Shown here: one piece after another, positions 2,919-59,023 of the stretch | Layout: every line of letters begins with the position of its first letter | How positions within the stretch are numbered: the stretch's first letter is position 1 | Source: Escherichia phage kaset | Reading direction: 5' to 3' (one strand) | Length of the DNA stretch: 64,000 nucleotides | Sequence record: PV245935.1 | The notes under the pieces: generated by a model | Told to the model about the DNA's origin: nothing | The model's database searches: none | The model's input: only the letters and a program-made list of their open reading frames with translations | Made by a program: the position numbers and the translations under genes

Positions 2919-2941
2919 ACACAATACTTATTTGAGGGTGG

Positions 2942-43763: not shown

Positions 43764-43765
43764 AA

Positions 43766-44056: not shown

Positions 44057-44057
44057 C

Positions 44058-44321: not shown

Positions 44322-44339
44322 ATTTAGGTATAGATACAT

Positions 44340-44444
44340 ATGAAAGCCGTAAAGAAATACACATTAATCATTTCCCTTGTTATCATCCTGGGGCTATTAT
44401 ATGTATTGGATATGGCATATTATTTGGCAGGGGTGAGTAAATGA
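44340..44444 (+). CDS. Small hydrophobic peptide (34 aa), hypothetical
   Basis: ORF MKAVKKYTLIISLVIILGLLYVLDMAYYLAGVSK; stop overlaps next ATG (ATGA); weak RBS. Confidence 0.35.
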   Translation: MKAVKKYTLIISLVIILGLLYVLDMAYYLAGVSK

Positions 44445-44731
44445 ATATTGTAATTCTTTATGGTGAGAATATCAGCGATGACGACATCGAAGTTGCCGTT
44501 GATGTTTACGGTATCGATGAGGTGAAACGTGTTGAAGAAATTAATGGCGCAAATCTTAACGAGATTGTCAAAGAAGCTGGTTGCCCTTCGGAAGAGATTC
44601 TGGTGGTTACTAACGATGACCTGTCTTCTATGGATTGTTTGCGCCGCATCTTCACCGATTGCCAATACCTTCATGCTGTTCAGTCAGTAAACAAATTGAG
44701 AAAGACATACGCTGACCAATTTCCTTGCTGA
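44441..44731 (+). CDS. Hypothetical acidic protein
   Basis: Track ORF with ATG. Confidence 0.5.
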   Translation: MNIVILYGENISDDDIEVAVDVYGIDEVKRVEEINGANLNEIVKEAGCPSEEILVVTNDDLSSMDCLRRIFTDCQYLHAVQSVNKLRKTYADQFPC

Positions 44732-44780
44732 TAGTTCACCAGTTATATTGCTTTAAACTGAGTTTTACTATATTAATATA

Positions 44781-44806
44781 CAACGCCAGATTTCTGGCGT
44801 TTATTT
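44781..44806 (+). terminator. Rho-independent terminator candidate
   Basis: AACGCCAG-ATTT-CTGGCGTT hairpin then TATTTA. Confidence 0.5.
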
Positions 44807-44867
44807 ACCGCACCCTGAAAGGATATATCCATGCAACAATATAACAAAGCCGTATCAGGAGGATTAA

Positions 44868-46538: not shown

Positions 46539-47185
46539 TGAATAAAGCAATCAACATCGCTAAATTCTTTCAACATCTCGGTGAACTGAACAAAGAGAGT
46601 GACGTTCACGGAGAAGAAATGAACCGGATGATTTCAACCGTGTTGCGTGGTTTTGGGTACGATAAGGACTCCATCACCTGTAAACGCACGAAGCTTGTCG
46701 ATGAGACATACCTTTACTACGTTGAATTGCGCGTAGGCAAGGATTTGATGATCATCGACCCTAAATTGGAAGGGGCGCACTGTTTTGGCGCTCACCCTCG
46801 TGCGAGTGAATTCAAGGGGCGCGGTCGCAACCGACTCCAGAAGCTTGATGATGCAGGCGACCTGAACATCTCGATGTTCCTCAAAGAGTTCCTTGCTCTG
46901 CCGAAGGTTGCATCCTCAACAGGTCGTGATGACCTGTGCAAGATTGGATTCAGAACTAAAGATTTGCGCAATGCGCTACGCAAGAAGGGATTTGTGCCTT
47001 CTTATGATAACGTCGCCGCGCTGATGGCTTCCATGGAGGAAGCTGAAGCAATGGATAAAGTGCGCGGCTATTTCCTGAATACAGGCTACACAATGTATGA
47101 GTGGCACACCAAAGGATTGACTGTCGCCGACTTCATCTATTCATTAGAGCAGAAGTATGTACGCAATATGCAGGCCACAGGATAA
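46538..47185 (+). CDS. Hypothetical protein
   Basis: 215 aa ORF, ATGA overlap with upstream gene. Confidence 0.5.
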   Translation: MNKAINIAKFFQHLGELNKESDVHGEEMNRMISTVLRGFGYDKDSITCKRTKLVDETYLYYVELRVGKDLMIIDPKLEGAHCFGAHPRASEFKGRGRNRLQKLDDAGDLNISMFLKEFLALPKVASSTGRDDLCKIGFRTKDLRNALRKKGFVPSYDNVAALMASMEEAEAMDKVRGYFLNTGYTMYEWHTKGLTVADFIYSLEQKYVRNMQATG

Positions 47186-47224
47186 TTATCATCAAAATAT
47201 TTGCTTTTCTGACGAGGTGATATT

Positions 47225-47449
47225 ATGATTAATTTAGACAGGATTGAGTTAGCACTTAGTACCTTAATCAAATATTACCAGTTTGCTTTTAAGGCTAGTT
47301 TGTTTGGCTTGTTCAATCCTCATCAAGCAGCAAAGGCTCGAAGCAATGCCAACCGCCTGCGCTGCACTGGTATAGTCATCCACGACCGGATATTGACAGA
47401 GGGTAGATTCAGCCATGAATACACAAGGGAGAATAACAAAGCAACGTAG
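47225..47449 (+). CDS. Hypothetical small protein
   Basis: RBS GAGGTG before ATG. Confidence 0.45.
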   Translation: MINLDRIELALSTLIKYYQFAFKASLFGLFNPHQAAKARSNANRLRCTGIVIHDRILTEGRFSHEYTRENNKAT

Positions 47450-47620
47450 GGCTTTACAAGTCCTCATCTACTACCTGACACGCCTTTATCCAACGGCGCA
47501 CGAGCAGAATCCATCAACGGGTCACCTGTTTAAGCGCCGTAACCTTTCGTTGAAAACATTCGCTTTAATCCAATACGACCGCTACCTGGACGGGCGCTAC
47601 TGCGGCCCGAAGGACTCACT

Positions 47621-47899
47621 ATGATTACTACATACAAAGTATTCTTTGTCAAATGCACATCATCGATTGATGACCAGTTTACTGCTGGAAAGAATTATCC
47701 CGTGATTTCTGAGTCAATACTAGATATAATCTTGAACGATCATGAAATCTATGAGCCGATGCCAGCGACTGCGTTTGATGTTATCGGTCACGTTCGGATT
47801 AAGACGAATGTTGAAACGATGCATGACCCGTTGTTCAAGAAGCAAATTAAGAATGCCATGCAAGACTTTTGCGCGGCTATGTTCAAATACTATAAGTGA
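47621..47899 (+). CDS. Hypothetical small protein
   Basis: Track ORF. Confidence 0.45.
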   Translation: MITTYKVFFVKCTSSIDDQFTAGKNYPVISESILDIILNDHEIYEPMPATAFDVIGHVRIKTNVETMHDPLFKKQIKNAMQDFCAAMFKYYK

Positions 47900-47906
47900 G
47901 TTGAAG

Positions 47907-48128
47907 ATGAGCAAGAAAACTCTTAAGGCTGGCGACCGTATCCGTTGGATGTCAGGGCAGAATATGCGCGCAGGCACCATCCTTGAGCTGGACCAATACC
48001 TTACTGATTCACGCGGTCGCAATCATTACCGCGTTCGAATCGATACGGTAAAAGAAGATGACAAGTCACTTGTTGGTGAAGTGGTCATCGTTACTCCACG
48101 TCAAATTAAGGCGGCTTGTGAAGCATGA
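47907..48128 (+). CDS. Hypothetical small protein
   Basis: In-frame ATG 47907 within track ORF 47742..48128. Confidence 0.45.
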   Translation: MSKKTLKAGDRIRWMSGQNMRAGTILELDQYLTDSRGRNHYRVRIDTVKEDDKSLVGEVVIVTPRQIKAACEA

Positions 48129-48280
48129 ATAAATTTCAGTTTAACGATAACAAGGTTAGTAAAGCAGACGCAATCAAGCAGCTTCGCCGCGTGCTTGAAG
48201 CCAGCGGCCACACGAAAGAGCGCGCACGCGTCTTAGCCAAAGAACATTATAAACGTTTCGTGTCACAAATCAGAGGTTGA
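48125..48280 (+). CDS. Hypothetical small basic protein (51 aa)
   Basis: ATGA overlap with upstream stop; below track cutoff. Confidence 0.35.
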   Translation: MNKFQFNDNKVSKADAIKQLRRVLEASGHTKERARVLAKEHYKRFVSQIRG

Positions 48281-48282
48281 CC

Positions 48283-48630
48283 ATGGCTCATGTTAAAGAC
48301 GAAGTGCTGTTTGGCGCAGAGATTAAGAAGCGTGTCAGAGAAATGGCAGGAGAAGAAAGAATGAAGCCACTGCGAAAAGGTTTTGATCACATCAATGGCG
48401 TATCCGGCACGAAGGAGATGGGTGTGTTGGTAAAAGACATTCGCGTTGGCGATGTCATGGTCATCGACCGACAAGCGCGAGTCGTTATCCAGGTGCAACC
48501 GAACGATGATGAAGGATGTGTCCTATTGAAGCTGAAGAAGCTTTCATCCAGCCCAGCAAAGGCCGTCATCAAGAAGGTCTGGCCAGAAGGATTACGCAAA
48601 CTCATTCGTCGACCCGTGGAGAATGTGTGA
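48283..48630 (+). CDS. Hypothetical protein
   Basis: ATG 48283 after AGAGG RBS. Confidence 0.5.
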   Translation: MAHVKDEVLFGAEIKKRVREMAGEERMKPLRKGFDHINGVSGTKEMGVLVKDIRVGDVMVIDRQARVVIQVQPNDDEGCVLLKLKKLSSSPAKAVIKKVWPEGLRKLIRRPVENV

Positions 48631-48866
48631 TGGAAGATTATATCAATTCTATGTACATGGCATTCTATGTCGTACAACTTCCCAATGGCGCGGTATTTTA
48701 TGGCGAGTATACCTTTGACGTTCAATATGACGTCTCAGAGCGTACAGTGTTAACAAGGGAGTTGATTGCGGACCTTAAGGACGACATCAAGCGCGTCGCG
48801 CGGCAGCAGTTCAATTTGGATGACACCGTCATCGTTCGAATTACCGGAATAACAGAGGTGCAGTGA
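48630..48866 (+). CDS. Hypothetical small protein
   Basis: Start overlaps upstream stop. Confidence 0.45.
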   Translation: MEDYINSMYMAFYVVQLPNGAVFYGEYTFDVQYDVSERTVLTRELIADLKDDIKRVARQQFNLDDTVIVRITGITEVQ

Positions 48867-49195
48867 TGACCCGTGATCAGATACTCGCCGCGCATGAGCG
48901 TGAAAAGGCGAAAGAAATCTGGAAAAGACACAACGCCTTTGCCGAGTCCTATTACTTCTTAAAGAGGTGCATAAAAGAGAATGTGAGGATGGGTGATACC
49001 GTTTTGACATTTAACATTTTGTCTTATGGTAATAAGCTTAATGCAATATATGCTTGTCGACTAGCCAACATGAAGTTCGATAGAGGAGGTGACGGAGAGT
49101 TGACCATCTATCGATTCTCTCACCGGACGGGTGATACAAAGATAACAAGGACACGTGAACAGATAGAGATTGACTTACTTCACTATGTAAAATGA
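48863..49195 (+). CDS. Hypothetical protein
   Basis: ATGA overlap; followed by terminator-promoter cassette. Confidence 0.5.
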   Translation: MMTRDQILAAHEREKAKEIWKRHNAFAESYYFLKRCIKENVRMGDTVLTFNILSYGNKLNAIYACRLANMKFDRGGDGELTIYRFSHRTGDTKITRTREQIEIDLLHYVK

Positions 49196-49200
49196 ATATC

Positions 49201-49249
49201 AAAAAGGTGAGCTAAATGCTTGCCTTTTCTTTTATCAATACTTATACTC
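49201..49249 (+). promoter_or_regulatory. Terminator-promoter cassette copy 1
   Basis: Hairpin AAAAAGGTGAGC-TAAAT-GCTTGCCTTTT with U-tract; -35 TTGCCT (49220-49225) overlapping 3' arm; -10 TATACT (49244-49249). Confidence 0.5.
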
Positions 49250-49280
49250 TTTTCATCAAGACTAACAAGCGAGGTGAATT

Positions 49281-49598
49281 ATGATTTACTTAGGCATCGA
49301 CCAGGAACAAGATGAGCAGTTAGGAAGCGTGTTAAACGTAGAATTAAACACAGCTGTACACGTCAAGCCTTGGCCAGAGGCGCACCCCGACGTAGTTGTA
49401 CCCGTTGCACCTTGGACGCGTTACGTTGCCATTGACGATAACGGCCTTGTCCATTGTTACTCAGAAAAGCCGACATACTTCGAAAAGTATCACCAATGGC
49501 TTATGACTGGTTGGGCAAAGGTGCGCTGTTGCGGCGAAGTCGGCCTGGAAGGATGGGGCTTCAAGGCTAGTGAATCATGCGTCGAGGTGCAATTATGA
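49281..49598 (+). CDS. Hypothetical protein
   Basis: RBS GAGGTG before ATG. Confidence 0.5.
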   Translation: MIYLGIDQEQDEQLGSVLNVELNTAVHVKPWPEAHPDVVVPVAPWTRYVAIDDNGLVHCYSEKPTYFEKYHQWLMTGWAKVRCCGEVGLEGWGFKASESCVEVQL

Positions 49599-49813
49599 AT
49601 GCCGCGCTGGGTAAGCTGTCTTTCAACAAACGCAATGAGCTGCGCATGGTATCGCTCTTTCAACAAACGCATTTATCACTAATCAAGATTGCAAACAAGG
49701 CCTACTCTCTAAATTGTCCTGAAGAAGAATGGAAAGAATTGAATGAGCGTCGTAAACAATTACAAAAGGCTGCATTCAAGCTGCAGCAATATGCCATGGA
49801 GTATGCAAAATGA
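49595..49813 (+). CDS. Hypothetical small protein
   Basis: ATG 49595 after GAGGTG; ATGA overlap. Confidence 0.45.
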   Translation: MNAALGKLSFNKRNELRMVSLFQQTHLSLIKIANKAYSLNCPEEEWKELNERRKQLQKAAFKLQQYAMEYAK

Positions 49814-50202
49814 GAATGAAACGTTGCCCGTATTGCCACGATGTGATGCATCTTCCACATGAAGAGTTTGTGCAGCACATGACTCATTGTGATAAGAATC
49901 CTAAAAGCGAGAGTCAACTTGAAGAAAGAATGTTTCTGGTTTCGTTCAAGTATTCAGCTTATGACGCGCAACTGGCTTACGGTGCGAGCGGTGCACCAAA
50001 TGCTATTTACCGACCAACAACATTGAGAAGCGACATAGACTCAATACAGCTTGTGGCCTGGATTAACGTTAAGGAAGGAATCACGGCGCACTTTATCGCG
50101 CGCATCCAATCCGAGATTCTACGAATCAAGCGCGAATACAACCGTGACATTACTGAAGTGAAGGTGCTGACCATCACACCGATGAATAAGGAGTTGCTGT
50201 GA
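49810..50202 (+). CDS. Zn-finger-like protein, hypothetical
   Basis: CPYCHD ... HMTHC motif. Confidence 0.5.
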   Translation: MRMKRCPYCHDVMHLPHEEFVQHMTHCDKNPKSESQLEERMFLVSFKYSAYDAQLAYGASGAPNAIYRPTTLRSDIDSIQLVAWINVKEGITAHFIARIQSEILRIKREYNRDITEVKVLTITPMNKELL

Positions 50203-50459
50203 ACAAGGGTCCGATGACTAAGCTGGCCGTTGCCGCGCGGAAGCTTCGACAAGCTGTTAATGGGTCGCGGCCCGTGGTGTTAACACTCGACGACGCGAAG
50301 GCGCTGGTAGAGCTGCTCGACGAGCACAACCGACGAAAGAATCTGGAGAACACATTACGCTGGCGCGTCACCCCAGCCGGGCGGGAGAGCGAGAAGAAAG
50401 CTTACTTGCGACGCAAACTAAGGTCAGTCGGCCTTCACGAAGAGGCGAAGAATATTTAA
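50199..50459 (+). CDS. Hypothetical basic protein
   Basis: GTG start after AAGGAG RBS. Confidence 0.45.
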   Translation: MNKGPMTKLAVAARKLRQAVNGSRPVVLTLDDAKALVELLDEHNRRKNLENTLRWRVTPAGRESEKKAYLRRKLRSVGLHEEAKNI

Positions 50460-50462
50460 TTC

Positions 50463-50509
50463 AAAAAGGTGAGCTAAATGCTTGCCTTTTTATTTGCCTG
50501 TATTATACT
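50463..50509 (+). promoter_or_regulatory. Terminator-promoter cassette copy 2
   Basis: Same hairpin AAAAAGGTGAGCTAAATGCTTGCCTTTTT; TTGCCT then -10 TATACT (50504-50509). Confidence 0.5.
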
Positions 50510-50537
50510 TAGTTCATCAAGCAAAGGAGAATTGATT

Positions 50538-50834
50538 ATGAGTTACGACGAAAGGTTTGGCAGAAGCGGGCTGTTTCATGATGCTGTATACAAAGACAGC
50601 CAAGATGTCGTCTGCGTATTGAGAAATGATTCTTACGGCGTGCTCAAGCCGTTTAAGGTCGGTGAGACATACGAATTGTTTCACGGATGGATTACGCAAC
50701 CAAACAACCTTCCTGATATGGAAGTCTGGTGGATAGAATACAAGGGCCAGGCGCATCGTTGCAAGGTCGTAGAAATACGCGGCGTGACACACTATCAATC
50801 TATTATCAGCGGATTTGTTTTTAAGGAGATTTGA
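50538..50834 (+). CDS. Hypothetical protein
   Basis: ATG 50538 after AAAGGAG RBS; track N-terminal extension runs through terminator and is rejected. Confidence 0.5.
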   Translation: MSYDERFGRSGLFHDAVYKDSQDVVCVLRNDSYGVLKPFKVGETYELFHGWITQPNNLPDMEVWWIEYKGQAHRCKVVEIRGVTHYQSIISGFVFKEI

Positions 50835-50836
50835 TT

Positions 50837-51139
50837 ATGAGTACCGAAGCGATGAAGAAAAAGGTTTTGAACGCTTTGCAAGAAGCCGTGAACTGTGGTG
50901 CCATTAAAGTATTTCATGAATTGCAATTTGGTGAAGGTGACGCGGTAGAATTTTACAGCAATAAAGACGGTCTTGCGACAATTTTCTTTTCAGAGCAAAG
51001 GGTTGGTGAGTGCATCCTGCAAATTGGTGGATATAGGCTTGTCGTCGACGATGCATTTATCACCTGCGCTGATGGCCTTAATCCGATGTTGACGTTTGAG
51101 CGTCGCGGCATCCGTGTTGCAACATTTGGAGGACAGTGA
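50837..51139 (+). CDS. Hypothetical protein
   Basis: ATG after AAGGAG RBS. Confidence 0.5.
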   Translation: MSTEAMKKKVLNALQEAVNCGAIKVFHELQFGEGDAVEFYSNKDGLATIFFSEQRVGECILQIGGYRLVVDDAFITCADGLNPMLTFERRGIRVATFGGQ

Positions 51140-51324
51140 TGAGCACCGAAGTACACAACGCATCAGCCTTGGTAAGCTTTTACCGTAACAAAGGCGTGTC
51201 GCTCGTTAAAACGCCGCAAGGGATGTTGTTCTTTGGCACGCGATTCCTTAAAGCATCGGAGCGTGAAACGCTGTCCAAGTTCGACCAGAAAACATTACAC
51301 GCAGTTTGGAGAAGACAACAATGA
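51139..51324 (+). CDS. Hypothetical small protein
   Basis: ATG overlapping upstream stop. Confidence 0.45.
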   Translation: MSTEVHNASALVSFYRNKGVSLVKTPQGMLFFGTRFLKASERETLSKFDQKTLHAVWRRQQ

Positions 51325-51614
51325 GACTAAGCCTAGCGCAAATTCAAACATTATACCGAATGGAAGACGGCACGCCATACATGCTGCGCGGCGACCGCAA
51401 GAAGGCTTATGAAAAGCGGCCATCACTATTTCACGACATCAATGCGCCATCAATACCTGTCTTATTCCGGCTTGGTCTTGTTGATTGGGCGGTGCCAGGA
51501 GAGAAAGACCCGACGCGTTATTCATCCGTGGTGATGACAAAAGCAGGTCGCGCGGCATTAAAAGAAATTAAAGAGAATATGGCTGGAGGTAAATATTATG
51601 ACATCAAATCTTAA
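51321..51614 (+). CDS. Hypothetical protein
   Basis: ATGA overlap. Confidence 0.45.
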   Translation: MRLSLAQIQTLYRMEDGTPYMLRGDRKKAYEKRPSLFHDINAPSIPVLFRLGLVDWAVPGEKDPTRYSSVVMTKAGRAALKEIKENMAGGKYYDIKS

Positions 51615-51780
51615 GGCCCGTTTATTATTCATCAATCCGCATGTGCCGTATAAGATTAGCAAGCGCACCTGGCTTAATATTTACAACCGCAGCGGCGACC
51701 GTTGCTTGTACAAGGCGAAGCGACGCAATAAAAGATACTTTCGTGTAGCGCAACCAAGTTTTCTCGGAGTAAAGAAATGA
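51598..51780 (+). CDS. Hypothetical small basic protein
   Basis: Track ORF overlapping neighbours; uncertain. Confidence 0.35.
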   Translation: MTSNLKARLLFINPHVPYKISKRTWLNIYNRSGDRCLYKAKRRNKRYFRVAQPSFLGVKK

Positions 51781-52286
51781 AAATCGAACAACTCGAAGCA
51801 GTACTGGAAATGGCTGTAAAGGCAGGCGCAATCAAAAGCTATCGTCGCGAGAAGTCTGAGGATTCTGCACACTTTTGTCGCAACTTCTATATCGTCGGCA
51901 ACCTTAACGACCACTACACCATCGAGTGGTATATTAACATAATGACCCTTAAGTCGCGCAGCATGGAGCTTTGGTGTGATGACATCTGTCTTTCGAATAC
52001 TCACCCAAGCTATGATGTCGCCCTGGCGTTCTATCACGGAAGCCGTCAACCTGTCGCCCACATCGGTGAGAAGCATGAGCAATTGAAGGAGAAACCAACG
52101 GCAGCTGACGGCTGGGTTGATTGGGACGGCGGCGACTTGAATCCAGTACCAGGAAAGAAGGTGCTTTACATTCTGCGCGACGGTGCTACAGCTACAAAGC
52201 CGATTGCATCAAATGAATTGCGCTGGGAAAAGATTGAGCGCCACCGCGATGGCGATGTCATCAAATACAAAGTCGTGGAGGAATAA
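51777..52286 (+). CDS. Hypothetical protein sharing a C-terminal domain with 53170..53838
   Basis: C-terminus WVDWDGGDLNPVPGKKV...YKVVEE parallels WTAWFGGENPVPGKMV...YRVVKEG. Confidence 0.5.
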   Translation: MKIEQLEAVLEMAVKAGAIKSYRREKSEDSAHFCRNFYIVGNLNDHYTIEWYINIMTLKSRSMELWCDDICLSNTHPSYDVALAFYHGSRQPVAHIGEKHEQLKEKPTAADGWVDWDGGDLNPVPGKKVLYILRDGATATKPIASNELRWEKIERHRDGDVIKYKVVEE

Positions 52287-52627
52287 TGGAAGAGCAAGAA
52301 GGCCGTGAGCTAACGTTCGACGAGCAAATGAAAGAGCTTCAGCGCACATCGCCGCTGCGCGGTAAGGTTGTTGACATTGAGGCGAGCGAATCCAATCTCA
52401 CCAAGTGGCGAATCAAGTGCACCAGCACAAGCAAGGATATGTTAAGCTTCAAAGTCGGTCAGACTTATTTGCTTTATGAGGCAAAAGGACTTATTATTGA
52501 TGGAAGGCAAATTGTCTTCACGGTAGTCAACGGCATGCGTTGGTTCGTGAAGCGTGATGTAGAGGGTCGTGACATGTTTGTCGCAGGCTTCCCAGAAACA
52601 AGATTCAAATTGGAGAAGGTTAAATGA
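52286..52627 (+). CDS. Hypothetical protein
   Basis: ATG overlapping upstream stop. Confidence 0.5.
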   Translation: MEEQEGRELTFDEQMKELQRTSPLRGKVVDIEASESNLTKWRIKCTSTSKDMLSFKVGQTYLLYEAKGLIIDGRQIVFTVVNGMRWFVKRDVEGRDMFVAGFPETRFKLEKVK

Positions 52628-52953
52628 AATTGAAATGGTACGTGGACCCTGAGCCAACAGGCCAATACAGGTCATTCCAACGTCGCGGCTGGCCGACTTG
52701 TTACAGCGGTAATCCCGATAAAGAAGATTGCGAGCTGCTTGCCGCTATCGTAAGCCTCGACCGTCACGGCTATGAAGGCCACTACGCGAGAGCAACCAAC
52801 CTTCGGCTTAAGGTGCGCATCCATTTCAAGGTCGCAGGCGAGGACCGCACCGGACTCTCCAAGGAAGAGTTCAGCAGCATCGCTGAAGCAAAGGCATGGC
52901 TCAAGGCGTTCTATAAGAACAACCCTAAATTCTATCCAACTAAGGATGCATAA
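52624..52953 (+). CDS. Hypothetical protein
   Basis: ATGA overlap. Confidence 0.5.
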   Translation: MKLKWYVDPEPTGQYRSFQRRGWPTCYSGNPDKEDCELLAAIVSLDRHGYEGHYARATNLRLKVRIHFKVAGEDRTGLSKEEFSSIAEAKAWLKAFYKNNPKFYPTKDA

Positions 52954-53186
52954 TGACCGATAAACAATACGCAGTCGGGCAACGTGACATCGAGCAACTC
53001 GACGAGGGCGGCTATTATACGCGCCACATCTATGCCATGACGCATGAAGGACTTTACAGCAAGTCGGACATCGCCGCTGAACTGGCCCATCGTGACTTGC
53101 AAATTGACGTGTTGCGTCTCGCGCTTGAGAAGCAAACGCAAATCGCTATTGAAATTTTGGAGAAGTTAAATGATACAACGTTATGA
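52953..53186 (+). CDS. Hypothetical small protein
   Basis: ATG overlapping upstream stop. Confidence 0.45.
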   Translation: MTDKQYAVGQRDIEQLDEGGYYTRHIYAMTHEGLYSKSDIAAELAHRDLQIDVLRLALEKQTQIAIEILEKLNDTTL

Positions 53187-53838
53187 TGTTGATTATTGCA
53201 CGCAGCACGCTTGTACATGCGAAGTTGTAAAGGATGATGAAGGCGGCTACGTTGAATATGAGGACTATGCCGCGCTGGAAGCGAAATATAGTTCTCTTAC
53301 GTACATTGACAGCGAACCGTTTGCATACATCATTCAGGACAAGTATGAAAGGGAGAAAGGATTAGATGGTCATCTCAGTCGCAGTCATGTATCCAAATAT
53401 GTTAGCCAGGAAGACATCAACGAGCATGAAATAACTTGCATCCCGCTCTATCGCCAAGCACAGTTGGCGATAGCAATAAAACCGTTGGCAAAAACCGATG
53501 ATGAGGACTACGCCGCGCTGGAAGCGAAATATGGTGAAGCGCAACGCGAGTTGGTTGCATTACGCTCACAGGTCCGTGATGCGTCGGCGCTCGTTAAGCA
53601 GTTGCACGACGTTGTTGCTACTATAGGCGTGGATGTTGATGCTTGCGAAAAGCAGGAAGAAGCGTGGACCGCGTGGTTTGGTGGAGAGAATCCGGTGCCT
53701 GGGAAGATGGTTGTGTTTGAGTTGTTAAACGGTTACAAATCAAAAGAGGCTGTGCCTTCGGATAATTTGAACTGGGGTGCAGTGGCAAGCCCTTTTGGCG
53801 AAGACATTGTTGCTTATCGGGTCGTTAAGGAGGGGTGA
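53170..53838 (+). CDS. Hypothetical protein with internal duplicated segment and shared C-terminal domain
   Basis: EDYAALEAKY occurs twice; C-terminal domain paralogous to 51777..52286. Confidence 0.5.
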   Translation: MIQRYDVDYCTQHACTCEVVKDDEGGYVEYEDYAALEAKYSSLTYIDSEPFAYIIQDKYEREKGLDGHLSRSHVSKYVSQEDINEHEITCIPLYRQAQLAIAIKPLAKTDDEDYAALEAKYGEAQRELVALRSQVRDASALVKQLHDVVATIGVDVDACEKQEEAWTAWFGGENPVPGKMVVFELLNGYKSKEAVPSDNLNWGAVASPFGEDIVAYRVVKEG

Positions 53839-54287
53839 TGAGTAAACGGCTTATCGCCGCTGGCTGGGCCATACCGAAGTGGGGCCATCGTGCGCATTAC
53901 TTTGACGAAGGAGAAGTGCAAAGCCTTTGTGGTCGCGCAACGTATTTCGGTGATGAGCGCGTCAGCGGCGATTACATCGACTCGCTTTTAGGTAAAGGTG
54001 ATTGCAAGAAGTGCCAGAATATATTAAGAGATATTCTTACGCAAAAAGGATTGCTTGAGCTTGATGAATCGGAAGAAGTGATTGAGCTTAAGCTGGAAGC
54101 AAATTACCTTATTTATACGTTCAAGAACTATTACGCAACTAATATGCGCTCAAAAATGAGCGAGGAAGTAATAGAAAAGGTGTTCACCTACAATCCGCTA
54201 AGGATGAATAAAACTAAATTGAAGAAGTTTAATATAATGTTAAGGAAAGAATTTAAAAGGCTAGGAGTGAAGAATTTTATATTTTAA
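53835..54287 (+). CDS. Hypothetical protein with Cys cluster
   Basis: CGRATYF...CKKCQ motif; last gene before terminator. Confidence 0.5.
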   Translation: MMSKRLIAAGWAIPKWGHRAHYFDEGEVQSLCGRATYFGDERVSGDYIDSLLGKGDCKKCQNILRDILTQKGLLELDESEEVIELKLEANYLIYTFKNYYATNMRSKMSEEVIEKVFTYNPLRMNKTKLKKFNIMLRKEFKRLGVKNFIF

Positions 54288-54303
54288 TAGTGATTAATGT
54301 TAA

Positions 54304-54328
54304 GAGGGCCAATCGGCCCTTTTTGTTT
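54304..54328 (+). terminator. Rho-independent terminator ending the + strand early gene block
   Basis: AGGGCCAATCGGCCCT hairpin followed by TTTTGTTTG. Confidence 0.6.
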
Positions 54329-54600
54329 GCCTGTTGTTTGTGAGTTTTTATTATCGGATAAAGCGATTGATTTGTGTAAATCTATTAGAGGATGGTGGGC
54401 CGTGAGGATTGTGACGTGAATTTTGTGTCTTGAATATGTGTTCGAATTTGGAAGAATATTGTACTGTGGTGCTGTGGGATTGGAGAGGGAATCACTAGGT
54501 TTTGGGGCGTGTACCGTGGTGTGTGGGCCTGTAGGCTGCGCCGTGTCTGGGATTGCCGCTTGAAATTAAAAAGGAGATATAGTTAGCTGGCTAACCTTAC

Positions 54601-54890
54601 GTATAGAATTTAAGCGTATAATGACGTAAGATTTGGACCTATCCGTAGTTCACTCCACACACTTCTATGGTGCGCCGCGACTGGGTTCAATGGTACATCT
54701 TACGGATGATACGGATGATACGCGTCGCCGCTATACTTTATACAACTTTGAAAAAAACAATTAACTCCATTTTGAATTAATTTAAATTAATTTTTTTCTA
54801 CATCCTCATACTTATACTAAAATTATATTTATACGTATTATCCGTAAGATATAAATAAAAACAAAGACTTGCGGCAATACGGATGATACG
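54601..54890. repeat. Iteron-like module B, homologous to 2540-2835
   Basis: Shared GCGTATAATGACGTA; inverted TACGGATGA x2 at 54689-54706; CGCTATACTTTATA; AT-rich core 54721-54850; further copies at 54826-54834 and 54864-54887. Confidence 0.7.
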
Positions 54891-55047
54891 CCATGATACG
54901 CTTCAGCCAGCCAGCAGCGGCTAAGTCATTGATTTGCATAACAAGCGGCGAAAGGGATGGATTTCTTTTATACGTATCAAACAGTACACCACGCACCACG
55001 GTCCATTATTCATTCAGCACTATGATTTATGTACTTTTACAGCCAAT

Positions 55048-55094
55048 TTGAACATCAATCTGCACTTGAATATAATGTTCATTCATTGTATAAT
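55048..55094 (+). promoter_or_regulatory. Tandem sigma70-like promoter candidates upstream of 55129 gene
   Basis: TTGAAC-17 bp-TATAAT (55071-55076) and TGTATAAT (55086-55093). Confidence 0.4.
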
Positions 55095-55104
55095 TCACAC
55101 TATT

Positions 55105-56584
55105 AATTTGCACTATGGGATTTGCACTATGAGTCAAGATTATGTAGCAATGCCTGAAGACTTTGAAGACCCGCGATTTGCAGAGCATAATCAGGCATTA
55201 TTCGATGAGTTCATTGACCTTGTTATTCAGGGCCATGACATGCGCGCAGCTTTTGCACTAGTATTTGGCATGGAGGTTGCGACCGATAACTACACTGGCC
55301 AGCGAATCCTGTGCACGCAACGCAATCCGTACTACAAGATGCGCTACAAAAAGCGTATGGAAGAGATGCCATTGAAGGAATTGTGGAGCGTAAAGAGTTC
55401 CATCCACAATTTAGTGAAGCTTGTGCGTGATCCAGAAGTCGCGGCATCAGCCAAGCTTAATGCCATTCGTGAACTGAATATCATCTACGGCATCACGATG
55501 ATTGATGAAAACGGCAATAGTAAAATGGGCCGTTCCATGGACGATTTCTACAAGGATTTTGGAGAGGCAGCCAAAGAGGGTGAGCAATTCTCCCGCCACT
55601 AGCCAATTTGCACTATAAAACGGCCCTAGAACACATTTTCTCCACTTCTAGGGCCATCGGTAATACGACGGTGAATGCTGCAACCATAAACGCGTTAGAA
55701 AGTGTATTATTATAAGTCATCTTTTAGTCACTTTACGTAACAATTTACGACCTTCCGCCGTCCAGTCGAACGACTCCACCAGCAGATTTGCACTATAACC
55801 TAAGACGATGCGCCCTTTCTCGTTATCGACCCGCCAACAAGTCTCGAATAGCATTCGATTTGCACTATTAACTATCACCGCAACGCGCGTTGGGTAAGCG
55901 CAATTTGCACTATGGTCGTAAAGGGATAAGGTGCGACCACTTCCGATGGACAACGTAGCGATGAGAATGAGTGTGTTCATAAGCCACCAATTTGCACTAT
56001 GAAAAGCGACCCCGAAGGGCCGCCATTCGATTAGATGATCTGGAAGGTGTAGGATTTGTTGCCGAACTCAAAGTTCAAGCGCCCAGCTTCCTTAAGCTTC
56101 ATACGGAAGCGAATGTGCTTGCTATCCGGTAAGCCCAGCGCGGCGAACGCTACGCGGACCGATTTGAACTCGCCTACACCCTCGACCATAACGCCGTTGC
56201 GCGTAAGACGCTTTTGCGCTACTTCCTTGTTGTCCCAACTTTTTGCAATACCTTCGCTATTCGAACGGCGATGGGAAGGAGTTCCATTTTGCACTACGCA
56301 ATTTGCACTATCGTTTAGGCCGCTCTTAACGAAGGCTTCATACTCTTCGTCGGTCATCGCGTCGAGTTCTTCCTGGGTCGGCTCGGCCTTTTTAACGACC
56401 GCACGCGCCTTATGCGTTTTTACATCGCTGGACACTTCCTCGCGCGGCTTCGCGTCGGGGATGGGCGATTCGTTGGACGGCTCATCGAGCGCGTTTAAGG
56501 ACTCGATTAACGCGATTACGCGAGTCTCGGCGGTACGGCGGTCCGCGAACTTTTTAATCGGCTTCGAACCGGAATTTGCATTAT
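55105..56584 (+). repeat. Dispersed same-strand array of ATTTGCACTAT motifs
   Basis: Copies at 55105, 55120, 55605, 55786, 55858, 55902, 55989, 56300; variants at 56286 and 56573; related AATTTGCAGTACACT at 58462 and 58559. Confidence 0.7.
55129..55602 (+). CDS. Hypothetical protein (candidate regulator; ATTTGCACTAT motifs overlap its start)
   Basis: ATG 55129; track N-terminal extension runs through promoter region and is rejected. Confidence 0.5.
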   Translation: MSQDYVAMPEDFEDPRFAEHNQALFDEFIDLVIQGHDMRAAFALVFGMEVATDNYTGQRILCTQRNPYYKMRYKKRMEEMPLKELWSVKSSIHNLVKLVRDPEVAASAKLNAIRELNIIYGITMIDENGNSKMGRSMDDFYKDFGEAAKEGEQFSRH

Positions 56585-56657
56585 AAAATGCAACGAGGTC
56601 GGCGGTCTTAGTTGCGATAACGTCGCCGCTAGTCGAGAAGCGATTTAAGCTAACCAT
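56031..56657 (-). CDS. Hypothetical protein in CpG-rich block
   Basis: 208 aa ORF; CG-rich codon usage distinct from rest of window. Confidence 0.5.
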   Translation of the reverse strand: MVSLNRFSTSGDVIATKTADLVAFYNANSGSKPIKKFADRRTAETRVIALIESLNALDEPSNESPIPDAKPREEVSSDVKTHKARAVVKKAEPTQEELDAMTDEEYEAFVKSGLNDSANCVVQNGTPSHRRSNSEGIAKSWDNKEVAQKRLTRNGVMVEGVGEFKSVRVAFAALGLPDSKHIRFRMKLKEAGRLNFEFGNKSYTFQII

Positions 56658-56737
56658 AATAAACTCCTATTTGTTAGGGCGCTAGGCGCGAAAGAATTTT
56701 ATTAAAGCGCCGCGCACGACGCTCTAAAAATCCTCTC

Positions 56738-57022
56738 TTACGCTTCGACGAGGGAGAAGGTCTCAAATTCTTCTTCGCCCATAACGAGTAAAATATTACC
56801 GATTTCGACCGCTTCGAAGAAGTATCCGTTAACGTTTACTTCGAAGGCTTCGCGGTCCGATTCCGGTAACGCCGCGTAAAGTTTAAAAGCTTCGGCGACC
56901 GTTACCCCACCCGCTTCGATAGTTTGGTCTACGTTCGCGGCGTAGACTTCGGATAAATTTTGTTTTACGCCGTAGTTCTCGACGATAGCGTTACGGATAG
57001 AAGAAACGTTAAGAATAGCCAT
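56738..57022 (-). CDS. Small protein, member of paralog family (with 57655..57945)
   Basis: Shared pattern SEVYAANVDQTIE / ESVYLSNVDAIIE and VNGYF..EIG / INGFV..EIG. Confidence 0.55.
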   Translation of the reverse strand: MAILNVSSIRNAIVENYGVKQNLSEVYAANVDQTIEAGGVTVAEAFKLYAALPESDREAFEVNVNGYFFEAVEIGNILLVMGEEEFETFSLVEA

Positions 57023-57245
57023 TTTAAACTCCTAGTTGGGAGAGGCGTTAACGACCTATTCGTTAACTCATCCCGTCCCGATATGAGTACATTATAATAT
57101 AGTGTAGAAAAAAGTAAAGCACTTTTTCGATAAAAATGCGATAAATTATTTTATCTTTTTTCTTTACTTCTTCGTACACTCGCGTATACTTGTTTATATC
57201 GAGACGGGCGATGGCCTTTCTTCTACTATCATCGGGAGCTTTATT

Positions 57246-57548
57246 ATGACTACTTTAATCTCTTCCATCCTTACTTACGACGAAGACCGTTTAACCGTTC
57301 GCTCTCTTATCGCCGCCGTTAACGCGGAACTAGAATCTAGCGCCATTAAGGTCCGCGCTTTCGTCTTCGCTAGTCTTTCCTTCGACGAAATTAAATACGC
57401 CGAACGTAGCGCCATCCGCTTCGCGAAGACCGACGACGAAGCCGTTACCCTTATCGAGACGGTTACGCCGCGCGGCGAAGCGTTAATTATCGTCGAGTAT
57501 ATCGACGTAGAAGGCGATAAATCTTATAAATATTTTATCGCAGAATAA
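57246..57548 (+). CDS. Small protein, possible distant paralog; flanked by 16-bp inverted repeats
   Basis: Preceded by promoter-like module; inverted repeats GTAAAGCACTTTTTCG (57114-57129) and CGAAAAAGTGCTTTAC (57549-57564). Confidence 0.5.
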   Translation: MTTLISSILTYDEDRLTVRSLIAAVNAELESSAIKVRAFVFASLSFDEIKYAERSAIRFAKTDDEAVTLIETVTPRGEALIIVEYIDVEGDKSYKYFIAE

Positions 57549-57654
57549 CGAAAAAGTGCTTTACTTCTTCGTACACTAAGACTATACTTATTTATATCGA
57601 GAGGGGAGAGGAAGCGAATAGGTCGCTACCCTCCCGACTAACTAGGAGAATATT

Positions 57655-57945
57655 ATGATCACTTTATCCGCTATCCGTTCCGCTCGCGTCGAAACTTCCG
57701 AAAACTCTAACATATTTGGCGAAACCTTAGAGAGCGTTTATCTCTCTAACGTCGACGCGATTATCGAGTCTATTTATGAGCCGATCAACTTCCTCGACCT
57801 TTACAAGTATCGCGACGAGGACATCGTATCCTGCCGCGTAACGATTAACGGCTTCGTCTATACGATTACCGAAATCGGCGGCGAATATATCGCTGTACCG
57901 CAACTCGGCGGAGAAGTGACTTATTTTAAAATCGTCTCCTTATAA
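57655..57945 (+). CDS. Small protein, member of paralog family (with 56738..57022)
   Basis: RBS AGGAGA; preceded by duplicated promoter-like module. Confidence 0.55.
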   Translation: MITLSAIRSARVETSENSNIFGETLESVYLSNVDAIIESIYEPINFLDLYKYRDEDIVSCRVTINGFVYTITEIGGEYIAVPQLGGEVTYFKIVSL

Positions 57946-57963
57946 TACCCTTCCGTTACTAAT

Positions 57964-57990
57964 AGGCCGCGCTTAGTCGCGGCTTTTCTT
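57964..57990 (+). terminator. Rho-independent terminator candidate
   Basis: GGCCGCG-CTTAGT-CGCGGC hairpin followed by TTTTCTTCG. Confidence 0.5.
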
Positions 57991-58642
57991 CGTCCCTATC
58001 TCGATGCGCTTCTCCGCGAAAACTCCTTTATTCTTCCCTTCGTCGTCTCATAATCTTCTTCGAGATGCTCCTTAGTTCGCATAACGGGTATTACGTTAAA
58101 TGGAGAACATCGCGTAAGTCCTTGTTTTATATAGACACCTATATCGGACCGTTAAGGCGGGTCGCGTAAGTCGTTGTTTTATAAAGGCGCAAAACTTTCC
58201 CTTCGTTCCGAACTAAAACGAGAAATATGCGGACCCTTCGCCCGAAAATAGTACGCATACGAAATTACCGACATCTAAAATAATCCCCGCCTATATTATC
58301 CTACACGCAATCATTAGCCTTCGAATCATTATGCTTCATATTATTATGCATCGAATCATTCGCTTTCGAATTGTAACGCTGGAAACTGTAACGGCGATTG
58401 ATTATTGCGTTCGTGTGGTTTTTAGGGCATGGGTCTTTTGGTGCGTTTTGGTACTTGATGAAATTTGCAGTACACTAATCAAAATATGACACATTTGGTC
58501 CACTAACTTTTCAAAGAAAAAGTCCTAGACAGTACCGTACTATTTTGTGCCCACAGTAAATTTGCAGTACACTCCTGCGCGGCAGGCAAAATAAAGGGCC
58601 GCCACAGCGACCCACGATTCACGGTTAAATCAGCAACACCCA

Positions 58643-59023
58643 CTATTCACTCTTATGGGCATCACCAAAGCCATCCGCAATCTGGCTGATCAATGATTCA
58701 ATGGACACAGTTTTACCAATTGATCGAGCGGTAATAGCAAGCATATTATCAATCAAACCATGATTGGCTGCATATGGTCCAGGTTGTGAATCATCTTCAG
58801 AACAACCAAAAAGCTGATCGCGAAGACTTTCAAGAGAACGCTCAATATTTTCCAGCTTCTCTTCTAAATCGGATTGGCGACGTAAAACCCATGTTAAGTC
58901 TCGGTTGCCGACTTCCAACCCATCAGAATCGCAAGCTGGAACGTCAATTTTGATACTGCCACCAAAGGCCATTCCGCTGCCTTTAGTATACGCGTGGTGA
59001 ATAGAATCATTTTTATTCGACAT
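58643..59023 (-). CDS. Hypothetical protein
   Basis: ATG 59023 preceded by AAAGGT; upstream in-frame ATG at 59038 lacks RBS. Confidence 0.45.
   Translation of the reverse strand: MSNKNDSIHHAYTKGSGMAFGGSIKIDVPACDSDGLEVGNRDLTWVLRRQSDLEEKLENIERSLESLRDQLFGCSEDDSQPGPYAANHGLIDNMLAITARSIGKTVSIESLISQIADGFGDAHKSE

What the first reader, a model, noticed from the sequence alone, without database searches (positions are those of the whole stretch)
54361..54540. C-poor, G/T-rich noncoding stretch with strong strand asymmetry
About 180 nt with no credible ORF has roughly 10 percent C by my count but abundant G and T (GTGGG, GTGTG, TTTGG runs). It follows the early-block terminator and precedes module B. 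Such compositional skew in a noncoding gap is unusual and could mark a structured noncoding RNA, a protein-binding tract or a packaging-related sequence.
Basis: seen in the sequence. Interest (0 to 1): 0.45.

Follow-up and report, generated by a model that had tools for sequence, protein, structure and literature searches.

The report
G/T-rich flank of phage packaging cut
The odd C-poor, G/T-rich stretch is real and is the left flank of the site where this E. coli phage (a Wifcevirus) cuts its DNA for packaging; related phage genera keep the same lopsided base composition there, mirrored on the other side of the cut, although the sequence itself drifts freely.

Summary
Region 54361-54540 is A36 C18 G66 T60, and 54332-54511 is the most GC-skewed 180-nt window of the 64 kb (+0.64, next best +0.47).

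It is not a structured RNA: there is no Rfam hit and the fold z-scores are +1.2 and +0.4. It is not a gene: the short ORFs are not conserved.

The window is a Wifcevirus. Its physical genome end, the left boundary of a ~3.7-kb direct terminal repeat (DTR), lies at 54768/54769. That is 209 nt right of the tract, and the small-terminase gene follows at 55129.

The tract's variable part evolves at the synonymous rate (0.089 vs 0.10). Yet a C-poor, G/T-rich tract sits left of the cut in other Wifcevirus subgroups, Serratia phage MTx, Pseudomonas phage JG024 and others. It is usually mirrored by a C/A-rich tract on the right. The DTR right boundary (58438) shows the same sign pattern.

Best reading: a composition-defined flank of the terminase cut. 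It makes the strand that ends 3' at the cut G/T-rich. It is either an adaptation for recombination or end protection, or a footprint of single-strandedness there.

The mechanism is inferred, not shown. The main rival is a Rho loading site for antisense RNA.

The parts
54302..54333 (+). Intrinsic terminator of the rightward early operon: a hairpin at 54302-54323 followed by a T-run. It lies immediately left of the tract.
   Evidence: -14.1 kcal/mol, z -2.3. Annotated as a terminator in WFH. The same terminator-then-G/T-tract order is seen in MTx, JG024 and WFC.
54332..54560 (+). The G/T-rich, C-poor tract (A42 C25 G80 T82; TG 37, CA 1).
   Evidence: The composition, but not the sequence, is kept in WFC-type and Bas98/99-type Wifceviruses, MTx, JG024, Gekk3-15 and PCSE1.
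54348..54377 (+). Conserved 30-nt island inside the tract (TTATTATCGGATAAAGCGATTGATTTGTGT). It holds a -10-like TATTAT and the 10-mer GCGATTGATT, whose only other exact copy is at 58394, 44 nt left of the DTR right boundary.
   Evidence: Pairwise divergence is 0.011 against 0.155-0.169 in the flanking 30-nt blocks. (10-mer). (promoter-like TTGCCT-16-TATTAT at 54327-54354). D1 (related copy at 54923-54941).
54507..54560 (+). Genus-conserved right end of the tract. It contains ACCGTGGTGTGTGG (54512-54526) and GCGCCGTGTCTGGGATTGCCGC (54538-54559). The first has an inverted partner at 54986-55005. The second has a direct copy at 54672-54693 and a relative at 2520-2550.
   Evidence: Alignment A1, repeats D4 and I3-I5.
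54561..54768 (.). Left half of the highly conserved core. It carries GATACG-type iterons (CGTATAATGACGTA, TACGGATGATACGGATGATACG) and top-strand GCCGC motifs at 54555, 54674 and 54727.
   Evidence: Pairwise divergence is 0.006..
54768..54769 (.). Physical genome end, i.e. the left boundary of the direct terminal repeat (the terminase cut). It lies in a 60-nt G-free AT-rich segment.
   Evidence: WFH record base 1 maps to 54769 and the Mansfield record ends at 54768. Mansfield's DTR of 1-3673 was predicted by PhageTerm (PMC6753283). WFC record base 1 is also 360 nt upstream of terS. A 3.7-kb repeat is reported in PMC6563267.
54769..55128 (.). Right half of the core. It carries inverted iterons, bottom-strand GCCGC motifs (54871, 54917, 54945), the weak C/A-rich right arm with CCACGCACCACGGTCCA (54989-55005), and the terS promoters (55048-55094).
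55129..55602 (+). Small terminase subunit (TerS) gene, the first gene inside the DTR.
   Evidence: Match to PDB 7UXE, the small terminase of Pseudomonas phage E217, at E = 9e-33. Annotated as terminase small subunit in Mansfield.
58380..58460 (+). Short G/T-rich run that straddles the DTR right boundary (cut after 58438). A C-rich stretch follows at about 58560-58680, so the sign pattern is the same as at the left boundary.
   Evidence: The WFH record end maps to 58438. Mansfield's PhageTerm boundary of 3673 falls at the same sequence position (...GGGCATGGGTCTTT / TGGTGCG...).

Best explanation
The stretch is the left arm of the non-coding control region around the terminase cut that creates the left genome end (54768/54769), just upstream of the small-terminase gene. 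It acts, if it acts at all, at the DNA level and in a strand-specific way, not as an RNA gene or a protein gene.

What is shown:
- In this phage family the strand that ends 3' at a terminase cut is C-poor and G/T-rich on both sides of the cut. There is a G/T-rich top strand on the left (this tract) and usually a C/A-rich top strand on the right.
- The same sign pattern recurs at the second cut, the DTR right boundary.
- Most of the tract's sequence drifts at the neutral rate, while its composition is held across genera.

What is inferred:
- When terminase cuts the concatemer and packages rightwards, the DNA left behind ends with this tract about 200-440 nt from the free end.
- After 5' resection, its 3' tail is the G/T-rich strand. 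That is the composition RecA-type recombinases prefer.
- The tract is also the densest one-strand cluster of TG in the genome. TG is the dinucleotide in which related Pbunaviruses carry a hypermodified thymine.
- I propose the tract makes that end recombination-proficient and/or nuclease-resistant, so that cut concatemers are salvaged by recombination-dependent replication.
- Alternatively it is the mutational footprint (C to T and A to G deamination) of repeatedly being that single-stranded tail.
- Its right end (54507-54560) is probably the outermost part of the sequence-specific recognition region.
For: - Terminus mapping: three independent records and one PhageTerm analysis place the cut at 54768/54769 (PMC6753283, PMC6563267).
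- terS identity: E = 9e-33 to the E217 small terminase, 7UXE.
- Conserved architecture without sequence similarity, in the order terminator, G/T tract, core with genus-specific iterons and AT-rich segment, C/A tract, terS:
  - WFC-type and Bas98/99-type Wifceviruses.
  - Serratia phage MTx, with a PhageTerm DTR boundary: left arm C 8%, skew +0.64; right arm skew -0.5 to -0.65.
  - Pbunavirus JG024: +0.6 and -0.74. Its experimentally suggested pac start at 59,376 falls between the arms.
  - Aeromonas phage Gekk3-15 and Salmonella phage PCSE1.
- The DTR right boundary at 58438 is G-rich on its left and C-rich on its right in the window, Mansfield and MTx. The T7 terminal-repeat right boundary shows the same sign.
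- Neutral sequence, held composition: 0.089 pairwise divergence in 54332-54506 against 0.10 at third codon positions and 0.006 in the core.
- C (7-14%) is the most constant property in all arms.
- Synonymous-site C falls in the last ~400 nt of the upstream gene in the window, MTx and JG024.
- RecBCD and recombination matter at these ends. 17 of 18 exact Chi sites in the fetched loci lie on the minus strand just inside the left end. The right arms hold 6 exact Chi against 0.096 expected, with 0 of 1000 shuffles reaching that.
- TG is at its maximum here and CA at zero: TG 37, CA 1; 31 TG per 180 nt against 12.8 +/- 3.8. TG-specific thymine hypermodification in Pbunaviruses is reported in bioRxiv 10.1101/2025.03.31.646159.
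Against: - No experiment links the tract to packaging, recombination or end protection.
- The tract itself has no exact Chi and no significant excess of near-Chi sites (4 vs 1.9 expected).
- TG is not enriched beyond what G+T richness gives when all arms are pooled: the TG/GT ratio is 1.19 in the arms against 1.34 genome-wide.
- Thymine modification has not been shown for any Wifcevirus.
- The right arm is weak in Wifcevirus, and both arms are weak in FoX7, BcepF1 and tabernarius.
- The synonymous-site signal is confined to about 400-800 nt, and similar values occur elsewhere in MTx.
- Two DTR genes left of the right boundary are C-rich at third positions, which is opposite to a simple deamination gradient.
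- The DNA left of the first cut may simply be lost, so a mutational footprint there needs the salvage step to be real.
- E217 TerS showed no appreciable DNA binding in vitro (PMC9611059), so nothing is known about recognition sites in this family.
Confidence: 0.4

Rival explanations
1. Rho loading (rut) site for leftward, antisense transcription. RNA made from the bottom strand across the tract is C-rich, G-poor and unstructured. It is followed by the terminator hairpin, which could act as a pause. Rho would stop transcripts leaving the terminus/DTR region before they run antisense into the early or primase operon. The C/A-rich right arm would do the same for rightward transcripts ahead of terS.
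For: The antisense RNA is about 35% C and 11% G over 229 nt, with an MFE of only -18.8 kcal/mol (z +0.42). A constraint on composition only, with neutral sequence drift, is what rut sites show. The tract sits directly against an intrinsic terminator hairpin in the window, WFC, MTx and JG024.
Against: The consensus scan found no leftward promoter between the tract and terS. The leftward DTR genes have their own annotated terminator. In Bas98/99 and WFC the top strand is only 21-27% G, so the antisense RNA is G-poor but not C-rich. The short G/T run at the DTR right boundary is not next to an operon end, and the pattern is centred on the two cuts rather than on transcription units. No antisense RNAs were reported for Pbunavirus 14-1 by ONT-cappable-seq (PMC10914365).
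Confidence: 0.2
2. Functionless filler. The tract is unconstrained spacer DNA whose composition only records a local strand-biased mutation pressure, or the composition of whatever was recombined in.
For: Divergence equals the synonymous rate. Two 30-nt blocks are even faster, at 0.155-0.169. The sequence is unalignable between Wifcevirus subgroups. The shift is amino to keto (C and A down, T and G up, purine fraction unchanged), which is the deamination signature. The C loss extends into synonymous sites of the upstream gene.
Against: The same composition is found in non-homologous sequence across at least five genera, with mirror symmetry about mapped cuts, so a persistent cause tied to the cut is needed. 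Short words are shared between genera beyond dinucleotide expectation: TGGTG 20 vs 7.3, TGGATT 11 vs 2.3. There are also conserved islands.
Confidence: 0.2
3. Outer part of the terminase recognition site, analogous to pacL. TerS rings wrap several hundred bp on both sides of the cut, and the G/T tract supplies low-specificity or flexible (TG/CA-step-rich) DNA for wrapping.
For: The tract adjoins the cut and terS. There are convergent motif arrays around the cut: GCCGC, 19 of 19 pointing at the mapped cuts in three genera, p = 4e-6. The inverted pair ACCGTGGTG/CACCACGGT lies 251 and 228 nt from the cut. SPP1 pacL/pacR is a precedent (PMC9611059).
Against: Duplex wrapping does not explain a strand asymmetry. 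Most of the tract is not sequence-conserved. GCCGC is 2.2-fold over-represented genome-wide, so it may not be a terminase motif. E217 TerS did not bind DNA appreciably in vitro.
Confidence: 0.1
4. Part of a replication origin. A promoter at 54327-54354 drives a G-rich transcript that forms an R-loop and primes DNA synthesis into the iteron-flanked AT-rich segment. Alternatively the G/T-rich strand is a primase initiation zone.
For: A promoter-like TTGCCT-16-TATTAT has its -10 box in a conserved island. A G-rich non-template strand is followed by iterons and a 60-nt G-free AT-rich segment. A primase gene lies directly upstream in MTx, JG024, Gekk3-15, tabernarius and BcepF1.
Against: MTx has no room for an equivalent promoter between its terminator and its tract. 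The skew sign (plus to minus) is that of a terminus, not an origin. An iteron/AT-rich paralog at 2520-2830 has no G/T tract.
Confidence: 0.06
5. A small structured regulatory RNA or a small hydrophobic peptide gene.
For: The region is a long non-coding gap. ORFs of 40-48 aa are open, and some BASEL phage records annotate them.
Against: There is no Rfam hit. Fold z-scores are positive. ORFs overlap in several frames, use TTG/GTG starts, and are lost in AV128 and Bas101. A low A content alone explains the scarcity of stop codons.
Confidence: 0.04

Closest known systems
Phage T7 concatemer-junction elements: the G/T-rich right end of the 160-bp terminal repeat and the adjacent SRL array of CCTAAAG-type repeats
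   Same: Both are strand-asymmetric non-coding DNA directly flanking a terminal-repeat boundary. In T7, positions 82-141 of the repeat have a keto fraction of 0.72 and skew of +0.35. SRL follows with skew -0.43 to -0.57. That gives the same G-rich-left, C-rich-right sign at a terminase cut.
   Different: T7's arrays are regular short repeats, whereas TRF finds no array in the tract. T7's left repeat boundary lacks the pattern. T7 uses its own RNA polymerase and a 160-bp repeat, not 3.7 kb. That these T7 elements are implicated in packaging is from my own knowledge of Dunn and Studier 1983 and later work. It was not checked here.
SPP1-type bipartite pac site (pacL - pacC - pacR)
   Same: Both are non-coding DNA next to the small-terminase gene in which the cut lies between two flanking recognition regions (PMC9611059). 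Here convergent motif arrays and inverted repeats flank the mapped cut.
   Different: SPP1 pacL and pacR are sequence-defined TerS-binding boxes. Most of this tract is defined by composition only and drifts neutrally. TerS binding is untested, and E217 TerS did not bind DNA in vitro.
Rho utilisation (rut) sites
   Different: No transcript or promoter in that orientation is known. The symmetry about terminase cuts is not expected for rut sites.
Chi sites and GT-rich sequences preferred by RecA
   Same: Orientation is the same: the G/T-rich strand is the one ending 3' at the DNA end, as for an active Chi. The mirrored right side of the cut carries real, correctly oriented Chi clusters in the family. 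TGGTG is enriched in the left arms.
   Different: The tract has no exact Chi and only one 1-mismatch copy, GATGGTGG at 54391. RecA's GT preference is from my own knowledge (Tracy and Kowalczykowski 1996) and was not tested here.
Phage T5 injection-stop / repeat-boundary non-coding region
   Same: Both are large non-coding regions with repeats and palindromes at the inner boundary of a long terminal repeat that carries small early genes.
   Different: Knowledge of T5 is from memory only. No two-step DNA entry is known for Wifcevirus. No sequence or compositional comparison was made.

Membership tests
Known RNA families (Rfam) / structured non-coding RNA | Match to a covariance model at or near its gathering score | tested here: not met
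   within 53800-55400 the best hits score 14.7-19.4 bits against gathering scores of 47-120, and none lies in 54332-54560.
Known RNA families (Rfam) / structured non-coding RNA | Fold more stable than composition-matched shuffles, with conserved helices | tested here: not met
   z +1.21 (plus strand) and +0.42 (minus strand). The sequence cannot be aligned across subgroups for covariation analysis.
Protein-coding gene (small peptide) | ORF with a conserved frame and start codon among relatives | tested here: not met
   the 46-aa ORF at 54423-54563 is absent in AV128 and Bas101. Start codons vary between TTG and GTG. Several overlapping frames are open. There is no counterpart in WFC-type phages.
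Rho-dependent terminator (rut site), minus strand | At least ~80 nt of C-rich, G-poor, unstructured RNA | tested here: met
   the antisense RNA is about 35% C and 11% G over 229 nt, with an MFE of -18.8 kcal/mol.
Rho-dependent terminator (rut site), minus strand | A transcript that actually enters the site in that orientation | tested here: inconclusive
   no leftward sigma-70-like promoter between 54560 and 55130. The scan is consensus-only, and no RNA data are available.
Rho-dependent terminator (rut site), minus strand | Termination that depends on Rho | not testable with these tools
   Needs Term-seq with and without bicyclomycin, or in vitro transcription with Rho.
Chi (RecBCD) site cluster | GCTGGTGG on the strand ending 3' toward the DNA end, in excess over chance | tested here: not met
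   left arms have 0 exact copies, and 4 with at most 1 mismatch against 1.92 expected (135 of 1000 shuffles reach that). By contrast the right arms have 6 exact against 0.096 expected.
pac site / terminase recognition region | Lies at the mapped packaging cut, next to the terminase small-subunit gene | tested here: met
   The cut is at 54768/54769 and terS is at 55129. The tract ends 209 nt left of the cut. The same layout is seen in MTx and JG024.
pac site / terminase recognition region | Sequence-specific, conserved recognition elements | tested here: inconclusive
   This is met only for 54348-54377 and 54507-54560. Blocks 54318-54347 and 54378-54407 evolve faster than synonymous sites.
pac site / terminase recognition region | Bound by TerS/TerL and required for packaging | not testable with these tools
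   Needs EMSA, footprinting or ChIP, and deletion or plasmid-transduction assays.
T7-like terminal-repeat-adjacent repeat arrays (SRL/SRR) | Regular array of a short repeated unit next to the terminal repeat | tested here: not met
   the only tandem repeat in the tract is a 14-nt unit at 1.9 copies (54409-54435); no repeat family lies inside the tract.
T7-like terminal-repeat-adjacent repeat arrays (SRL/SRR) | Strand-asymmetric composition flanking a repeat boundary | tested here: met
G-quadruplex-forming tract | High G4 propensity relative to the rest of the genome | tested here: not met
   the maximum G4Hunter (25-nt) score in the tract is 1.20. The window-wide maximum is 1.28 elsewhere, and 37 windows reach |score| of 1.2 or more.

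The most novel reading that the evidence does not exclude
The phage family encodes strand-specific signals in the density of one dinucleotide, TG. This is the context in which Pbunaviruses carry a bulky hypermodified thymine. The tract is the genome's maximum of top-strand TG with no bottom-strand TG. The right half of the terminal repeat is almost free of TG on both strands. The second terminase cut falls exactly where top-strand TG reappears. If so, modified-thymine density on one strand would tell the packaging motor or nuclease, or host exonucleases, where genome ends are. That would be a modification-coded terminus signal and end cap not described for any phage.
Probability: 0.12. Interest if true: 0.85.

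Novelty: new variant of a known kind. Interest (0 to 1): 0.55.

Why it matters
Packaging-site anatomy is unknown for the Pbunavirus/Wifcevirus group. This group includes some of the most used therapeutic Pseudomonas phages, and their TerS does not bind DNA in vitro. A composition-coded flank that is mirrored about the mapped cuts and conserved across genera gives three things. First, it is a cheap sequence signature for predicting genome ends in this group. Second, it points to strand-specific events at cut ends (recombination, nuclease protection, possibly base modification) as a selected or mutagenic force. Third, it defines concrete elements to delete or invert when engineering or rebooting these phages.

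Tried and rejected
- **Rfam scan at permissive E-value:** nothing in the tract.
- **RNA folding of both strands:** no excess stability.
- **Small-ORF conservation:** rejected.
- **Tandem and dispersed repeats inside the tract:** none of note. The repeats lie to its right.
- **Chi-cluster idea for the tract:** rejected, although Chi clusters exist on the other side of the cut.
- **G-quadruplex:** not exceptional.
- **CsrA-sponge idea (GGA motifs):** by hand count and a hand estimate with no tool call, about 8 GGA in about 250 nt. That is close to what the composition predicts (about 7), so the idea was dropped.
- **IHF-site reading of TTGATT:** by eye, with no tool call, it does not fit the consensus. 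Dropped.
- **The 14-1 'CTGGG' phage-promoter motif (PMC10914365) as an explanation for GCGCCGnnnCTGGG at 54538 and 54672:** no similar sites upstream of other operons in the window. Kept only as a lead.
- **Long-range synonymous-site gradient:** it first looked strong within the primase genes. With 10 kb of context only the nearest ~400-800 nt stand out.
- **TG-specific enrichment in the arms:** not beyond G+T richness.
- **Profile search for distant terS loci in IMG/VR:** failed because the alignment was too divergent. The single-protein search found only known Wifceviruses.
- **Supplementary TSS/TTS tables for phage 14-1:** not held.

Full report
**1. What the window is.**
The region 54200-55200 is 97% identical to Escherichia phage ECML-117, FEC19 and vB_EcoM_WFH, so the window is a Wifcevirus, an E. 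coli myovirus of about 68 kb. Genes run rightward at 1-22049 (structural), leftward at 22050-42315, and rightward again at 42476-54287 (small early genes). An 841-nt non-coding gap follows at 54288-55128.

**2. The observation.**
Region 54361-54540 is A36 C18 G66 T60. The anomaly spans about 54332-54560 (A42 C25 G80 T82).
- 54332-54511 is the most GC-skewed 180-nt window of the 64 kb. Its skew is +0.644, the next best is +0.471, and z is 5.1.
- It is also the most keto-rich window, at 0.711 (z 5.5).
- It starts at the T-run of a terminator hairpin, which is annotated as a terminator in WFH.
- C depletion reaches back into the last 300 nt of the upstream gene.

**3. What it is not.**
- No Rfam family matches.
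- The plus-strand RNA folds worse than shuffles (z +1.21). The minus-strand RNA is nearly unstructured (-18.8 kcal/mol for 249 nt).
- Short ORFs are open in several frames because A is scarce and so stop codons are scarce. They change start codon or disappear among 97%-identical phages.
- There is no tandem array, no G-quadruplex signal beyond background, and no Chi cluster.

**4. Where it sits.**
- WFH was deposited with its terminal repeat. Record base 1 aligns to window 54769 and its last base to 58438.
- The Mansfield record ends at 54768. Its DTR (1-3673) was predicted by PhageTerm, and its right boundary falls at the same sequence as the WFH end (PMC6753283).
- WFC base 1 is also 360 nt upstream of the next gene.
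- A repeat of about 3.7 kb is reported in PMC6563267.
- That next gene (55129-55602) is the small terminase: E = 9e-33 to PDB 7UXE, the TerS of phage E217.
- So the tract lies 209-437 nt left of the terminase cut that makes the left genome end. It is on the unique side of the concatemer junction.

**5. Fine structure (six ECML-117-like phages).**

| Region | Pairwise divergence |
|---|---|
| Third codon positions, flanking genes | 0.10 |
| 54332-54506 | 0.089 |
| 54318-54347 | 0.169 |
| 54378-54407 | 0.155 |
| 54348-54377 (island) | 0.011 |
| 54507-54560 | 0.035 |
| 54561-54768 (core) | 0.006 |

- The island at 54348-54377 carries GCGATTGATT. The only other exact copy of that 10-mer is 44 nt left of the second cut.
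- The core from 54598 to 54980 holds GATACG-type iterons in inverted arrangement around a G-free AT-rich segment that contains the cut.
- A paralog of this iteron/AT element, without a G/T tract, lies at 2520-2830, upstream of the head protease gene.

**6. Comparison across the family.**
WFC-type Wifceviruses align only from 54674 rightwards. Even so, their equivalent gap begins with a C-poor, G/T-rich tract, and the same holds for Bas98/99 with a 167-nt longer gap. The pattern recurs outside the genus:
- **Serratia phage MTx** (TerS 35% identical, PhageTerm DTR of 3566 bp). The order is primase gene, terminator, a ~200-nt tract with 8% C and skew +0.64, then about 150 nt, the DTR boundary, an AT-rich segment, a C/A-rich tract with skew -0.5 to -0.65, and terS.
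- **Pbunavirus JG024.** It has a +0.6 tract and a -0.74 tract. The long-read start pile-up at 59,376, proposed as the pac start (PMC10913387), falls between them.
- **Gekk3-15 and PCSE1** show both arms. PA1 shows mainly the right arm. FoX7, BcepF1 and tabernarius show the pattern only weakly.

Low C (7-14%) on the strand ending 3' at the cut is the most constant property. The second cut, at 58438, is again G-rich on its left and C-rich on its right in the window, Mansfield and MTx. T7's terminal-repeat right boundary has the same sign.

**7. Motifs.**
- Across seven left arms, TGGTG (20 vs 7.3), TGGATT (11 vs 2.3) and GCCGC (8 vs 1.1) exceed dinucleotide-shuffle expectation.
- GCCGC lies on the top strand left of the cut and on the bottom strand right of it. 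The switch falls exactly at the mapped cut in the window, MTx and JG024: 19 of 19, p = 4e-6. This orientation runs against the local G/C skew.
- However, GCCGC is 2.2-fold over-represented throughout the window. Only its orientation at the cut is special.

**8. Weighing mechanisms.**
A constraint on composition alone fits four readings:
- a rut site for antisense RNA;
- a G-rich transcript forming an R-loop;
- a G/T-rich 3' tail favoured by recombinases or protected from nucleases;
- a deamination footprint of that tail.

The pattern is centred on both terminase cuts, including a short G/T run at 58380-58460 that is not at an operon end. The sign is the one expected for 3'-ending strands at a break, and it is opposite to a replication origin. 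Correctly oriented Chi sites cluster just inside the left end across the family.

For these reasons I rank the cut-centred, single-strand reading first (0.4). This reading covers both the adaptive form and the form in which the composition is a by-product of real tail formation. The rut reading follows at 0.2, pure footprint or filler at 0.2, TerS wrapping at 0.1, origin at 0.06, and RNA or peptide gene at 0.04. That the tract belongs to the terminus-flanking architecture and is neither an RNA gene nor a protein gene I hold at about 0.8.

**9. A link that may matter.**
A preprint reports that Pbunavirus DNA carries a hypermodified thymine in TG, about one quarter of all T (10.1101/2025.03.31.646159).
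- The tract has TG 37 and CA 1. It holds the window-wide maximum of TG (31 per 180 nt against 12.8 +/- 3.8) and the minimum of CA.
- This follows from its G+T richness and is not a TG-specific enrichment.
- Modification is unproven for Wifcevirus, although these phages resist restriction (PMC11990801).
- Even so, TG density is clearly under selection in this genome (see the side observations). The tract would therefore be a one-strand block of modified bases next to the cut.

**10. Verdict.**
The structured-RNA option is not.

The feature is a new variant of a known kind of element, namely pac or terminal-repeat flanking DNA. What distinguishes it is that it is defined by strand composition, mirrored about the cuts, and conserved across genera. 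Its function remains inferred.

Noticed in passing
window 56300-58300 (right half of the DTR); also WFH L001 DTR +1800..+3300 and MTx L021 about 1400-3400: A ~2-kb zone is almost free of both TG and CA. There are 70 in total against 247 +/- 13 in shuffles. Observed/expected is 0.26 for TG, 0.30 for CA and 2.15 for CG. The seven longest TG/CA-free runs of the window lie here. The three genes at 56738-57945 encode proteins with no Trp, no His and almost no Cys or Gln, and two of the three have Met only as the initiator. The zone is conserved in Serratia phage MTx and is weak or absent in the headful Pbunavirus JG024. Since Pbunaviruses hypermodify T in TG, this may be a modification-free zone near the genome end.
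   Followed up: partly
window 55776-55783 (-); MTx L021/L022, PA1 L023, Gekk3-15 L029, JG024 L024, all right of the packaging cut: Exact Chi sites (GCTGGTGG) cluster on the minus strand within about 0.2-1.8 kb inside the left genome end: 17 of 18 in the fetched loci, including 7 in PA1 and 4 in MTx. The terS-upstream right arms hold 6 against 0.096 expected. This is the orientation that RecBCD would recognise when entering at the left end.
   Followed up: partly
window 54555, 54674, 54727 (+) and 54871, 54917, 54945 (-); whole window: GCCGC motifs converge on the mapped cut, 19 of 19 in three genera. The same 5-mer is also 2.2-fold over-represented genome-wide (284 vs 131 +/- 11.6, about 4.5 per kb). 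The cause is unknown.
   Followed up: partly
window 2520-2830: This is a paralog of the iteron/AT-rich core of the terminus region. It has nine GATACG copies around a 68-nt G-free segment and a GGATTGCCGC box. It lies upstream of the head maturation protease gene (2942-4363). It could be a shared regulatory, origin or protein-binding element rather than a terminase site.
   Followed up: partly
window 54363-54372 and 58394-58403: The only two exact copies of GCGATTGATT in 64 kb lie left of the two terminase cuts, at 406 nt and 44 nt respectively. A related copy, GTCATTGATTTGCA, is at 54925.
   Followed up: no
window 54538-54559 and 54672-54693: Two copies of GCGCCGnnnCTGGG(A/T)T are conserved across the genus. 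They resemble the CTGGG-core phage-specific promoter motif reported about 5 bp upstream of the TSS in Pbunavirus 14-1 (PMC10914365). No similar sites were found upstream of other operons in the window.
   Followed up: partly
window 57246-57945 (+) and 56031-57022 (-): Genes inside the DTR are strongly C-rich and G-poor at third codon positions on their own coding strand (C3 0.36-0.45, G3 0.11-0.26), whichever way they point. The rest of the genome does not show this.
   Followed up: no
Mansfield L020 about 3853-3885, equivalent to window about 58620: Mansfield carries a tandem CCACGAC repeat (CCACGACCCACGACCCACGACCCACGACCCAC) just right of the DTR right boundary, where the window has a single copy. 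This is a length-variable C-rich array at the mirrored position.
   Followed up: no
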